From Aequorivita sp. (GTDB lineage Bacteria; Bacteroidota; Bacteroidia; Flavobacteriales; Flavobacteriaceae): a stretch of DNA of 40,000 nt. The notes beneath the pieces were generated by a model. The model was not told where the DNA came from, made no database searches, and worked only from the letters and a program-made list of their open reading frames with translations. A program made the position numbers and the translations under genes. Numbering within the stretch: the first letter of the stretch is position 1; every line of letters starts with the position of its first letter. Of the stretch, positions 18,647-20,799 are shown piece after piece. The stretch spans positions 997,573-1,037,572 of the forward strand of contig JAUCCE010000002.1 of the NCBI GenBank assembly GCA_034676445.1, read 5' to 3'.

Positions 18647-18841
18647 ATGGGACATATAGCAGAACCTAAAGGAGTTGACTTCATCATCAAAAGTCCACCT
18701 TTGACTGACGAGGAAAGAAAGGAATTGAGCGAGTTTATTAAAAAAAGAAAAGCCGAGTCAAAAAAGAAATTATCTTCAAAACGAAAATCTCGCGCGAAAG
18801 AAAAGCCAGCCGCTAATCGAGTAGACGGCCGTGAGCAGTAA
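18647..18841 (+). CDS. small basic protein; native 3' end displaced by the group II intron (restored end ...KEKPAANIV*)
   Basis: ATG 1 nt after the upstream stop. The ORF crosses the intron junction at 18815/18816. Joining 18815 to 20673 gives aac-att-gta-taa (58 aa). Confidence 0.5.
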   Translation: MGHIAEPKGVDFIIKSPPLTDEERKELSEFIKKRKAESKKKLSSKRKSRAKEKPAANRVDGREQ

Positions 18842-20672
18842 GCCCACGGTGCGCCTCTCACACCACCGTACATACGGGTCTCGTATACGGCGGTTCACCA
18901 GATTGAAGTCTGTGCTCTATCGATGTAATCTCCTAGCGGTTTATAGCCTTTTCGTTTGAGTCTGGAAATGGTTATGGTAGTTTTTAAAATAGGACTTTGT
19001 GCTACTGCCCATCCTCCCATTCGTGTTCTACTCCAAGCATACGCTTGCCCTTGTTCTATCCCCAATCTAATAAGATTTTTACGTTTACGTTCTAGCTTTT
19101 TCCAATCGTGCCAAATACAATATCGCAATCGGTTTCTTAACCAAGTATCTAGCTTTTTAAGTTTAGCATAACTCTGCGCTAACCGATAGTTGTTAATCCA
19201 TCCCCGACAGACTTCATTGAGTCTTTCAAGGCGTTCTAACAGGGATATAGGTTTGGTCTTTTTGGTGATACTCTTTAACGTACGTTTAAACTTGCCCCAA
19301 CTCTTATGTGATACAACAAGTTGATACTGCCCTTTTACTCCCTTTTTGTAGACAGGTACAAAACCGTGTCCCAGCAATTCGAAATGTACTGGTCTGCGAA
19401 TACCGCTCTTGGCTTTGTTGATAGGTAACTTGAGTGCATCCCTTAAAAAGAGATACAGCTCATTACCTATCCTTTTTGCCTCGCTTTTGCTCCTAGTGTA
19501 AACACTAAAATCATCCGCATAGCGCACATAGCGCAGTCCTTTCGACTCCATATGCTTGTCCAGTACATCTAACATAATATTAGATAGTAATGGACTCAGA
19601 GGGCTTCCTTGCGGTATTCCTTTTCGGCGTTTCTCCAGCCGCCCATTAATACGTATGGGCGCTCGTAGCCATTTTCGGATTAGGCGCAAGGTCGTTGGAC
19701 ATTTTACCCTGTTGTAAATAAGTTGCAGTAATCGCATATGGTCTACCTCGTCAAAGAACCCCTGTAAATCAATATCTACAATGTCCTGATAGCCAGTATT
19801 GATATACTGTTGGGCTTGTAGTACTGCTTTGTGAAGGTTCTTATTGGGGCGGAAACCATAGCTGAATGGTTCAAATTCATATTCGAGCTCAACCATCAAC
19901 TGTTGGTTTACCGATTGTTGTAGCCATCGATCTACTACTGTTGGAATCCCTAAAAGTCTGGTCTTACCCATACCTTTTGGGATGGAAACCCCTAAGATCG
20001 GGTCTGGTACATAGCGATGTGTGCGTATAGAAGCTAGTAGGTCGTCTCGGTGTTCTGCTATGTAAGCAGATAATTCCGTTGTCTTCATACCATCTACTCC
20101 ACACGCTCCCTTATTGCGCTCAACTTTACGCTGCGCCTTATAGAGATTCTTTGCTTCTAGTACCTTTTCAATCATAGGGTCAATAAATGTAAATACTCCT
20201 GTTGGGCTAAGATGGGGCTAGCTAGGCTTCCCAATCAAATTCCAACATAATCTAATGTTCGGTCCTTCCTTATCTGTGAGACTTCTGTGGTTTCTTTTCA
20301 CAGCTCGTTTCCTATAAGTACTATGACTTCTGCTGACTTCTCCATTATGCCAACTCGTGGCTGTGGAGACCTCCCCAGGTAATGGCATCTTCTTTCACTC
20401 AATCCCTGCCGTATCTACATATATGCACTTTTGGTATTCTTGGGGCGTTACAATGATGTGCTTGCTTACCCATGCATATATGCCTCTGTATACGGTTCCT
20501 GTTCGTCAGTACCGAGATTTGTAGTCCTGCTTCCTTCACTCCATATCTCACGATAAACGAGCTTGCAGCTTACTAATGGTTCAAGGCGTTACCCCTGCCC
20601 ATAAGGGTCTTGCACCCTCTAGATTAATTATTTACCTTTCGGTAAAGTAAAAGATGCCCATGCTGGGCACAC
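18816..20672 (-). mobile_element. group II intron (bacterial class C-like, 1857 nt) inserted antisense in the R'' box of attC E
   Basis: Minus strand starts GTGTGCCCAGC and ends ...CTACTCGAT. Domain V-like CCGCCGUAUACGAGACCCGUAUGUACGGUGG lies near the 3' end. The IEP has RT + maturase domains and no HNH. Flanks GCCGCTA|AC rebuild R'' complementing 18075 GTTAGCGGC. Confidence 0.85.
18895..20175 (-). CDS. group II intron reverse transcriptase/maturase
   Basis: 426 aa; RT blocks incl. IPKGMGKTRLLGIPTVVDR, FSYGFRP, IPQGSPLSPLLSNI, YVRYADDFSVY (YADD); maturase-like C-terminus (RGWINYY-type CRGWINNYRLA). Confidence 0.92.
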   Translation of the reverse strand: MIEKVLEAKNLYKAQRKVERNKGACGVDGMKTTELSAYIAEHRDDLLASIRTHRYVPDPILGVSIPKGMGKTRLLGIPTVVDRWLQQSVNQQLMVELEYEFEPFSYGFRPNKNLHKAVLQAQQYINTGYQDIVDIDLQGFFDEVDHMRLLQLIYNRVKCPTTLRLIRKWLRAPIRINGRLEKRRKGIPQGSPLSPLLSNIMLDVLDKHMESKGLRYVRYADDFSVYTRSKSEAKRIGNELYLFLRDALKLPINKAKSGIRRPVHFELLGHGFVPVYKKGVKGQYQLVVSHKSWGKFKRTLKSITKKTKPISLLERLERLNEVCRGWINNYRLAQSYAKLKKLDTWLRNRLRYCIWHDWKKLERKRKNLIRLGIEQGQAYAWSRTRMGGWAVAQSPILKTTITISRLKRKGYKPLGDYIDRAQTSIW

Positions 20673-20799
20673 ACATTGTATAAGCGTAATGCGGGCTGAA
20701 TCGCTAAAATTCAGTATTTTGGCATCTATCAAAGTTTAGTGTGGGCGGACAGTGAATCGCTTTGAAATCCCACACTAGGCTTATACTTGACCGTTATAG
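20673..20799 (+). other. attC-like site, family E, right part (R'' split by the intron; left part 18811-18815)
   Basis: ac-attgtataagcgtaatgcggg ... cccacactaggcttatacttgaccGTTATAG; R' GTT at 20793-20795. Confidence 0.8.

What the first reader, a model, noticed from the sequence alone, without database searches (positions are those of the whole stretch)
18809..20799. Group II intron (class C-like) inserted antisense in an attC, with a base-precise empty site
The minus strand of 18816-20672 starts GTGTG and ends ...CGAT (AY end). It has a domain V-like helix with a CGC triad just before the 3' end, and an RT-maturase ORF without an endonuclease domain. Joining 18815 to 20673 gives GCCGCTAAC-attgtataagcg. 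That is a proper R'' complementing 18075 GTTAGCGGC, and it restores a short ORF end (...KEKPAANIV*). A subclass of bacterial class C introns (IIC-attC type, e.g. the Serratia S.ma.I2 intron) is known to target integron attC sites in the orientation opposite to cassette transcription. The same relationship here independently supports the idea that these palindromes behave as attC-type ssDNA hairpins.
Basis: partly seen in the sequence, partly recalled or inferred. Interest (0 to 1): 0.6.

Follow-up and report, generated by a model that had tools for sequence, protein, structure and literature searches.

The report
Class C intron splitting attC-like site
A complete, probably still mobile self-splicing group II intron sits backwards inside the hairpin recombination site that ends a gene cassette in a flavobacterial integron-like array. 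This habit is known from proteobacterial integrons, but here it belongs to a separate, Bacteroidota-wide intron lineage, and a relic of that lineage also lies beside the tigecycline-resistance gene tet(X4) on E. coli plasmids.

Summary
Window 18816-20672 (minus strand) is a 1857-nt class C group II intron. It has D1, D2-D3 and DV-DVI Rfam matches, a CGC triad, a bulged branch A, and an intact 426-aa RT-maturase with YADD and no endonuclease domain.

It splits the R'' box of an attC-like site (GCCGCTA|AC), antisense to the cassette genes. That is the same nucleotide position as the published IIC-attC introns (TTGT/T). Intron-less homologues of this cassette in two other Flavobacteriaceae give natural empty sites. 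A 97% identical second copy in the same genome sits in another attC-like site.

Forty-five non-redundant insertions of relatives across Bacteroidota share TATAC-N-TGT|T-R. The RT tree places this family with terminator-targeting Firmicutes class C introns. It lies apart from the proteobacterial IIC-attC pair (two starred branches; AU p 0.0125). The array's recombinase is below the IntI model cut-offs.

My verdict is that it works like a IIC-attC intron but is a distinct lineage: a new variant of a known kind. Earlier agents in this scan reported the same lineage on other Bacteroidota DNA.

Side find: tet(X) is a cassette of this system in a sister family, and E. coli tet(X4) units keep the R'' box cut by a 188-nt relic of this intron family.

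The parts
18816..20672 (-). Complete class C group II intron, 1857 nt (5' GUGUG ... CGAU 3')
   Evidence: Rfam matches. Second copy with identical ends. Family junctions.
20384..20557 (-). Domain I core (RF02001, the D1 model also hit by class C controls)
   Evidence: 121.8 bits. The controls L102 and L107 score 134.9 and 130.2 bits.
20454..20461 (-). Terminal loop GCACAUCA holding the proposed EBS1 (ACA at 20457-20459, ACAU to 20456). It would pair with IBS1 (A)UGU, the last bases of the 5' exon.
   Evidence: The loop core CACA is present in all 45 family copies and CACAU in 43 of them, while its stem covaries. The homologous loop of the canonical IIC-attC intron holds ACAA opposite its TTGT exon. 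The assignment is inferred, not tested.
20262..20361 (-). Domains II-III / start of IV (RF01998)
   Evidence: 42.3 bits against a gathering score of 35
18895..20175 (-). Intron-encoded protein in domain IV: 426 aa, RT (YADD at 219) + maturase X, no endonuclease domain
   Evidence: Pfam RVT_1 6e-38 and GIIM 2.4e-15. TIGR04416 352 bits. PDB class C RTs are the best hits.
18862..18894 (-). Domain V, with the class C CGC triad at 18890-18892
   Evidence: RF00029 alignment. Compensatory changes at 4 DV pairs among 21 relatives.
18818..18860 (-). Domain VI with a bulged branch-point A at 18822, 7 nt from the 3' splice site
   Evidence: Consensus fold of 21 relatives: 17 of 30 pairs have compensatory changes and the A is unpaired and invariant
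18809..18815 (+). Left part of the split R'' box (GCCGCTA|) at the end of cassette 18076-18815. This is the 3' exon of the intron on the other strand (T AGCGGC).
   Evidence: Natural empty sites.
20673..20800 (+). Rest of the attC-like site: |AC of R'', L'' ATTGTATAAGCG, variable centre, L' GGCTTATACTTGAC, R' GTTATAGC (crossover G|TT at 20793|20794). This is the 5' exon of the intron on the other strand.
   Evidence: (I21). The same attC type precedes tet(X) in L130/L131.
18075..18083 (+). Cassette start GTTAGCGGC, the exact complement of the restored R'' GCCGCTAAC (the flank rule of excised and re-inserted cassettes)
18647..18841 (+). Small basic ORF of the cassette whose last codons are changed by the insertion (NIV* becomes NRVDGREQ*)

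Best explanation
A retrohoming class C (IIC) group II intron of a Bacteroidota-specific lineage has inserted into the bottom strand of the attC-like site that closes cassette 18076-18815 of a chromosomal integron-like array.

Proposed mechanism. Parts shown: the anatomy, the target pattern and the conserved structure. Steps inferred: everything below.
1. The intron RNA and its RT-maturase form an RNP.
2. The RNP recognises the long imperfect hairpin that the bottom strand of the site forms when it is single-stranded.
3. It pairs a 3-nt EBS1 (ACA, loop 20454-20461) with the exon bases UGU, and an EBS3 with the following T.
4. It reverse-splices between GT and T of the bottom-strand R'' (top strand A|AC).
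5. It is copied into DNA without an endonuclease, presumably primed by a nascent strand at a replication fork, as established for other IIC introns.

Consequences. The intron is antisense to the cassettes, so it cannot be spliced out of cassette transcripts. It separates R'' from L''/L'/R' by 1.86 kb, which should block folding and excision of this cassette through its own site and interrupt read-through into cassette 20794 onwards. It also rewrites the last codons of the small ORF.
For: Anatomy and class.

Precise site: the empty-site join, natural intron-less homologous cassettes, and a second 97% copy in another attC-like site 11 kb downstream of a paralogous recombinase.

Family-wide target. 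In 45 non-redundant insertions, position -3 to -1 is TGT in 44-45, +1 is T in 41, +2 is a purine in 41, and a TA[Y]A (L'') block lies at -10 to -7. Forty-one of these were folded; the other four are tandem intron-intron junctions. In 28 of the 41 the restored site pairs at least 9 of the 23 junction bases, and in 27 of the 41 the hairpin spans over 100 nt (median span 131 nt). An antisense ORF of at least 60 aa ends within 90 nt of the 3' junction at 27 of 41 sites, against 1 of 41 in a reversed-sequence control.

Same position as canonical IIC-attC introns and as the published consensus.

Likely activity: intact ORF with YADD, two near-identical copies, and strong structural covariation in DV/DVI and around the EBS1 loop.

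Separate lineage. The nearest outgroups insert behind terminator hairpins.
Against: No splicing or mobility was measured. The EBS1/EBS3 assignments rest on homology, and the exon bases do not vary, so there is no covariation test of the pairing.

Only two canonical IIC-attC RTs and about a dozen other class C RTs were available for the tree. The AU test group was named after the first tree was seen.

MFE folding did not put the junction into a long hairpin at about a third of the sites.

The array's recombinase is below the IntI cut-offs, so calling the target an 'attC' rests on architecture and the flank rule, not on a demonstrated IntI reaction.
Confidence: 0.85

Rival explanations
1. It is simply a member of the described proteobacterial IIC-attC lineage that reached Flavobacteriaceae by horizontal transfer.
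For: Same strand, same orientation and same nucleotide of R'' as aadA2::intron and blaIMP-4::intron. ACA-containing loop at the homologous D1 position.
Against: The RT is only 35-36% identical to the canonical pair, against 40-42% to Firmicutes class C RTs. In the careful tree two starred branches (95/94, 98/93) place the family with Firmicutes class C and exclude the canonical pair. Forcing them together costs 22.8 lnL, p-AU 0.0125. All 77 related loci but one come from records titled as Bacteroidota. The 2010 census of IIC-attC hosts lists none from this phylum.
Confidence: 0.08
2. It is an ordinary class C intron that homes behind any stable hairpin (terminator-type targeting), and the attC-like sites are hit only because they are the commonest hairpins here.
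For: Class C introns in general use a stem-loop plus very short IBS1/IBS3. The nearest outgroups (E. faecium, Persicobacter type 2) sit behind GC-rich hairpins with T runs.
Against: All 41 folded sites share TGT|T-R and most share the L''-type TATAC block. The insertion lies inside the 3' arm of the hairpin rather than after it, with no T run. The flanks behave as cassettes: antisense ORF ends and the flank rule. Both copies in this genome are in attC-like sites.
Confidence: 0.05
3. The copy is a fixed, no longer mobile remnant, and its only present role is as an insertion mutation of the attC-like site.
For: Only two copies in a 4.0-Mb genome. No activity data.
Against: The 426-aa ORF is intact with YADD in both copies, which are 97% identical in nt and 98% in aa. 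All catalytic RNA elements are conserved with compensatory changes across the family. Relatives are multi-copy and sometimes tandem in other genomes.
Confidence: 0.1

Closest known systems
Group IIC-attC introns of proteobacterial integrons (S.ma.I2/E.c.I7, Kl.pn.I1, Kl.pn.I3, G.s.I1, N.e.I1; Quiroga et al., Leon and Roy; PMC3001079, PMC7923331)
   Same: Class C ribozyme. RT-X protein without an endonuclease. Insertion in the bottom strand of an attC, antisense to the cassettes, between GT and T of R'' (TTGT/T). An ACA-type EBS1 in the homologous D1 loop. Able to occur in arrays far from an integrase.
   Different: The RT clade is distinct and Bacteroidota-wide, closer to terminator-targeting Firmicutes class C introns. 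The 5' end is GUGUG rather than GUACG. The target sites are long (about 125-200 nt) attC-like palindromes of an array whose co-oriented recombinase scores below the IntI models. Outward promoters (Pout) were not examined.
Ordinary bacterial class C introns (for example GBSi1-like and B. thuringiensis introns; GsI-IIC and E. rectale introns with solved RTs)
   Same: RNA architecture (RF02001 D1, CGC triad), RT of about 420 aa, En-less, hairpin plus 3-4 nt IBS1 recognition. These are the closest relatives in the tree.
   Different: They insert just after intrinsic-terminator hairpins. This family inserts inside the 3' arm of attC-like hairpins at a fixed TGT|T.
Non-IIC or sense-strand introns in attC sites (IIB/CL1 and class E introns of hypersaline integrons, PMC7923331; a top-strand class C intron in a class 1 integron, seen here in L099)
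   Same: Group II introns associated with cassette arrays.
   Different: Those lie in the cassette-sense orientation or belong to other classes. The window intron is antisense and class C.

Membership tests
Bacterial class C (IIC) group II introns | Class C ribozyme: compact D1 of the class C type, DV with a CGC triad, DVI with a bulged A, GUGYG...AY ends | tested here: met
   RF02001 121.8 bits, comparable to the class C controls at 130-135 bits. RF00029 full length ending at 18816. CGC at 18890-18892, A at 18822, covariation.
Bacterial class C (IIC) group II introns | Intron-encoded RT-maturase of the class C clade, without the D/En (HNH) domain | tested here: met
   RVT_1 + GIIM only. Best PDB relatives are GsI-IIC RT at 312 bits and the 7uim group II intron RT/maturase at 303 bits, against LtrA at 116 and the 6me0 maturase RT at 103. 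In the tree it lies inside the class C references, with an RmInt1-like RT as outgroup.
Bacterial class C (IIC) group II introns | Self-splicing and retromobility | not testable with these tools
   Supported only indirectly by the intact ORF, two 97% copies and conserved structure
Group IIC-attC introns | Inserted in the bottom strand of an attC site, opposite to cassette transcription | tested here: met
   Intron on the minus strand, cassette ORFs and R''...R' on the plus strand. Family-wide antisense ORF ends at 27 of 41 sites against 1 of 41 in the control.
Group IIC-attC introns | Insertion within R'' at the consensus TTGT/T (IBS1/IBS3) | tested here: met
   The window reads AATGT|T and the second copy ATTGT|T. 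Across the family, TGT|T is found at 41-45 of 45 sites, and position -4 is T in 28 and G in 13. This is identical to the position in the canonical controls.
Group IIC-attC introns | Membership of the single IEP clade defined by Leon and Roy (100% bootstrap node) | tested here: not met
   The canonical pair (L101, L102) is excluded from the starred clade that joins this family with Firmicutes class C. AU test p 0.0125. Caveat: only two canonical references, and the group was chosen after the first tree.
Group IIC-attC introns | The target is an attC of an integron or CALIN (a site used by an IntI integrase) | tested here: inconclusive
   The sites have the R''-L''...L'-R' plan, and cassette ends obey the flank rule. 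However, the array-proximal recombinase scores 194 bits on TIGR02249 (cut-off 265) with model positions 182-238 unmatched, and 196 bits on NF040815 (cut-off 220).

The most novel reading that the evidence does not exclude
Homing into attC-type hairpins arose (or was kept) independently in a Bacteroidota-wide class C lineage that parasitises integron-like arrays run by a non-IntI recombinase. This lineage would then serve as a molecular tracer: the 188-nt relic that cuts the R'' box behind tet(X4) in hundreds of E. coli replicons would show that the ISCR2/IS26 tet(X4) unit was lifted from an intron-occupied tet(X) gene cassette of such an array.
Probability: 0.6. Interest if true: 0.75.

Novelty: new variant of a known kind. 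Interest (0 to 1): 0.6.

Why it matters
First, a retroelement whose only known way of choosing a target is a folded single strand plus 3-4 bases picks these palindromes at one fixed base, in at least 45 sites across a phylum. That is independent evidence that the long palindromes of Bacteroidota cassette arrays behave as attC-type single-strand hairpins.

Second, attC parasitism by class C introns is not confined to one proteobacterial lineage. This bears on the proposed role of such introns in building or freezing cassettes.

Third, the family leaves recognisable scars. One lies immediately behind tet(X4) on E. coli plasmids, and the matching empty site exists in native genomes of a sister family, where tet(X) is a single-gene cassette. 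This gives a concrete, testable account of where and in what form that resistance gene was captured.

Tried and rejected
1. RF00029 was not reported at gathering threshold for the whole window. It appears at 38.3 bits in an E-value search of the region. I accept it because it spans the full model, ends at the junction and shows family covariation.

2. I looked for canonical IIC-attC references by blastn in E. coli genomes. This mostly returned the tet(X4) relic and non-integron class C introns. The references were finally taken from plasmids.

3. The rest of the split attC (20673-20810) has no other copy in the own genome, so no paralogous empty site exists there. Empty sites came from other genomes.

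4. The flank rule could not be checked for the E. coli tet(X4) unit, because estT replaces the native upstream sequence. It holds in the native genomes.

5. MFE folding of restored sites is noisy. About a third do not place the junction in a long hairpin. I rely on the conserved L''/R'' motifs as well.

6. There is no covariation test of EBS1-IBS1, because both sides are invariant.

7. Literature searches for this intron lineage in Bacteroidota or beside tet(X4) found nothing. The library's matching of 'tet(X4)' is uncertain, and subscription papers are not covered.

8. I rejected the readings 'retron or DRT reverse transcriptase' (scores far below TIGR04416) and 'intron of the second family in this genome' (that RT branches outside class C).
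Full report
**What is there.** Reading the minus strand of 17900-21000 shows ...CGCTTATACAATGT followed by GTGTGCCCAGCATGGGCATC... and, 1857 nt later...GGCCGTCTACTCGAT followed by TAGCGGCTGGCTTTTC.

Rfam places three models on this strand:
- RF02001, the D1 core, at 20384-20557 (121.8 bits).
- RF01998, D2-D3, at 20262-20361 (42.3 bits).
- RF00029, DV-DVI, at 18816-18895 in a regional search (38.3 bits, E 1.9e-5). 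The full model is used and ends exactly at 18816.

The ORF 18895-20175(-) is a 426-aa RT (RVT_1) plus maturase (GIIM) with no HNH domain. It passes the NCBIfam group II RT-maturase model at 352 bits against a cut-off of 300 and carries YADD.

A consensus fold of the last 82 nt of 21 relatives gives DV (18862-18894, CGC triad at 18890-18892) and DVI (18818-18860, bulged invariant A at 18822). Compensatory changes occur at 17 of 30 pairs. All six-domain landmarks that can be checked by sequence are therefore present and under structural selection.

**Class.** The best solved-structure relatives of the RT are GsI-IIC RT (312 bits), the 7uim group II intron RT/maturase (303 bits) and the 5hhl/5hhj RT fragments. 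From memory, not from the tool output, these are class C enzymes, 7uim being the E. rectale intron RNP. LtrA (IIA) scores 116 bits and the 6me0 maturase RT (T.el4h, IIB, from memory) 103. Class C controls that I fetched hit the same RF02001 model at 130-135 bits: a canonical IIC-attC intron and a B. thuringiensis intron. The 5' end aligns with other class C introns, for example GTGCGCCCTGCATGGGTG in E. faecium. From memory it also aligns with the O. iheyensis IIC intron. Both support 20672 as nucleotide 1.

**Boundaries and empty site.**
- A second copy in the same genome (G000:C4:611875-613731, 97% identical over 1-1857) shares sequence only between the same two bases.
- Removing 18816-20672 gives GAAAAGCCAGCCGCTA|ACATTGTATAAGCG and restores ...KEKPAANIV*. 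With the intron the ORF ends ...PAANRVDGREQ*.
- Homologous cassettes without an intron exist in two other Flavobacteriaceae genomes (79% and 78% identity). They read ...GAAAGAAAAACCTACTGCCAAC-GACGCATAACGG and ...GAAAATCCGAAAGCGTAAC-AACTAAGC, so the AAC of R'' is intact.
- The restored R'' GCCGCTAAC is the exact complement of GTTAGCGGC at 18075, the start of the same cassette.

**The setting.** Window about 1100-24400 is a plus-strand cassette array. Its intergenic sites share the plan xxxxxAAC / AATGTATA... / variable centre / ...TATACnnAAC / GTTxxxxx. Cassette starts are complementary to their own ends, for example 8025 GTTGTAGCAC with 10165 GTGCTACAAC, and 10363 GTTAGCTGC with 11636 GCAGCTAAC. 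A co-oriented tyrosine recombinase ends at window 462. It scores 194 bits on the IntI model (cut-off 265), with model positions 182-238 unmatched, and 196 bits on the XerA/IntI model (cut-off 220). A paralogue lies 11 kb upstream of the second intron copy. I therefore call the sites attC-like and the array integron-like. Earlier notes of this scan on the same window reached the same view of the recombinase.

**Is the target choice real?** A scan of one genome per species found 77 loci encoding relatives of the RT (55-97% identity). All but one come from records titled as Bacteroidota, and the closest are Aequorivita and Gelidibacter. Mapping the intron ends gave 45 non-redundant insertion sites:
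- Positions -3 to -1 are TGT in 44-45.
- Position -4 is T in 28 and G in 13.
- Position +1 is T in 41 and +2 is a purine in 41.
- A T-A-Y-A block (the L'' TATAC) lies at -10 to -7.

Forty-one restored sites were folded as single-stranded DNA in the intron-sense strand; the other four are tandem intron-intron junctions. Most form long imperfect hairpins (median span 131 nt) with the junction inside the 3' arm near the base. At 27 of 41 sites an ORF of at least 60 aa on the opposite strand ends within 90 nt of the 3' junction, against 1 of 41 in a reversed-sequence control.

**Comparison with the known IIC-attC introns.** The literature defines them as a lineage of IIC introns inserted in the bottom strand of attC, at R'', in TTGT/T, opposite to cassette transcription, and also in arrays without an integrase (PMC3001079; PMC7923331). 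I fetched two canonical examples from plasmids:
- dfrA12-orfF-aadA2::intron-qacEdelta1 (L102).
- intI1-blaIMP::intron-qacG2 (L101, L138).

Their junctions are GAATTGT|GTACGCCC...CCCGAT|TAGACATC and CTTTGT|GTACGCCC...CCCGAT|TAGAAAT. On the top strand these are GTCTA|AC and the like, the same nucleotide as GCCGCTA|AC here.

In the D1 loop that Rfam aligns to consensus GCaaaacA, the canonical intron has GCACAAGA (ACAA opposite TTGT) and the window intron has GCACAUCA (ACA/ACAU opposite (A)UGU). In the family the loop core CACA is present in all 45 copies and CACAU in 43, while its stem covaries (GCAA/UUGU, GUAA/UUGC, GGCA/UGYC, GUGA/UCAC). I take this loop as EBS1. That is an inference.

**Lineage.** The window RT is 35-36% identical to the canonical IIC-attC RTs but 40-42% identical to Firmicutes class C RTs.
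- In a 44-row quick tree and a 33-row careful tree (IQ-TREE, LG+C20, RmInt1-like outgroup) the Bacteroidota family is one clade (100/100).
- That clade lies inside a starred clade (95/94, then 98/93) with Anoxybacillus, E. faecium, B. thuringiensis and S. agalactiae class C introns and a second Persicobacter intron.
- The canonical IIC-attC pair (100/99) branches outside.
- Forcing family plus canonical pair together costs 22.8 log-likelihood units (p-AU 0.0125).
- The nearest outgroups sit behind ordinary terminator hairpins.
- The 2010 census of IIC-attC hosts lists Proteobacteria and one NC10 bacterium, with no Bacteroidota.

Caveats: there were only two canonical references, and the test group was chosen after the first tree. 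Other agents of this scan reported the same lineage on other Bacteroidota windows. I count that as agreement, not as evidence.

**Mechanism and consequences.** The inferred mechanism is in the best explanation: hairpin plus a 3-nt IBS1 and a 1-nt IBS3, reverse splicing into the bottom strand, and En-independent cDNA priming. The general model for IIC introns is established knowledge. Nothing of it was tested here. What the sequence shows is the outcome:
- R'' is separated from the rest of the site by 1.86 kb.
- The element is antisense, so it cannot be removed from cassette transcripts.
- The small ORF's tail is changed.

**Side finding.** The blastn search of E. coli genomes hit the last 81 nt of the intron (81-82% identity) in well over a hundred records. 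At the two loci I examined (L094, L095) the hit lies 21 nt beyond the tet(X4) stop codon, antisense to tet(X4), and is truncated by ISVsa3/ISCR2 or IS26. The relic is 188 nt (the RT C-terminus plus DV-DVI) and is up to 94% identical to family members. It abuts ...AATGGAATAAAACGGCACATA|.

In six genomes of a sister family of the same order, tet(X) (93-99% identical over 720 nt) is a single-gene cassette. GTTATGTGCC lies 18 nt before the start codon. GGCACATAAC plus an attC-like palindrome of about 125 nt follows the stop. Sequences diverge between genomes immediately after the next G|TT and before the first one. The native genomes therefore provide the empty site GGCACATA|AC, and the E. coli units the occupied one.

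The papers I could check on tet(X) origin and context do not mention an intron, an integron or a cassette in this sense. A 2026 paper reports that another Riemerella resistance gene moves together with a 140-nt 3' region that folds like an attC (PMC13148043). That is the nearest thing in print that I found.

**Verdict.** The element works like a IIC-attC intron but fails the phylogenetic criterion of that lineage and lives in a non-IntI array. It is a new variant of a known kind, of moderate to good interest, raised by its use as a tracer for the origin of the tet(X4) unit.

Noticed in passing
L095:3394-3602 (E. coli plasmid NZ_CP075463.1); also L094 and about 150 other E. coli records: A 188-nt relic of this Bacteroidota intron family (RT C-terminus + DV-DVI, ending CTACTCGAT) lies 21 nt beyond the tet(X4) stop codon, antisense to tet(X4). 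It cuts an R''-type box GGCACATA|, and its far side is truncated by ISVsa3/ISCR2 or IS26. I found no mention of it in the tet(X) papers I could read.
   Followed up: partly
L127:1014-2345, L128, L130, L131 (genomes G595, G590, G523, G661 of a sister family in the same order): tet(X) (93-99% identical to tet(X4)) is a single-gene cassette of the same integron-like system. G|TTATGTGCC lies 18 nt before the ATG, GGCACATAAC plus an attC-like palindrome follows the stop, and the neighbours on both sides differ between genomes. This is the natural empty site for the E. coli relic.
   Followed up: partly
L130 and L131, positions about 885-1013: The attC-like site preceding tet(X) in two genomes of another family is the same attC type as window 20673-20800 (ACATTGTATAAGCGTAATGCGGGCTGAA...CTTATACTTGACC). 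Site types are therefore shared across families.
   Followed up: no
L040:2862, L050:2861, L063:937: Head-to-tail tandem introns (CTACTCGAT|GTGTGCCC). These are consistent with a second homing event at the 5' junction of a resident copy, where the hairpin and TGT survive and only the +1 base changes. L030:2885 also reads G at +1 (CTACTCGAT|GTGTGCTG), but what follows does not match the family's 5' end, so whether that site is tandem is unclear.
   Followed up: no
G000:C5:459632, C5:448969, C4:388403, C3:61898 (L003-L010): The same genome holds four copies of a second, unrelated group II intron family (469-aa RT) that branches outside the class C references in the tree. Its targets were not examined.
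   Followed up: no
L099:2651-3985 (E. coli plasmid NZ_OZ547451.1): A class C intron lies in a class 1 integron between aadA2 and dfrA12, in the same orientation as the cassettes (top strand, ...GGCGTGT|...|TAGCC). It resembles the unusual Enterobacter cloacae case cited in PMC7923331.
   Followed up: no
window 2415, 7118, 11630, 14445, 18800, 22870: A CCAG/CTGG motif recurs 5-6 nt upstream of the AAC of R'' (and CTGGC in many 3' exons of the intron family). This suggests an R box longer than the classical 7 nt.
   Followed up: no
L080 (CASBQB010000208.1): One family member comes from a 2.6-kb contig of a MAG labelled 'uncultured cyanobacterium'. Given the otherwise exclusive Bacteroidota distribution, this looks like a binning error rather than transfer.
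   Followed up: no
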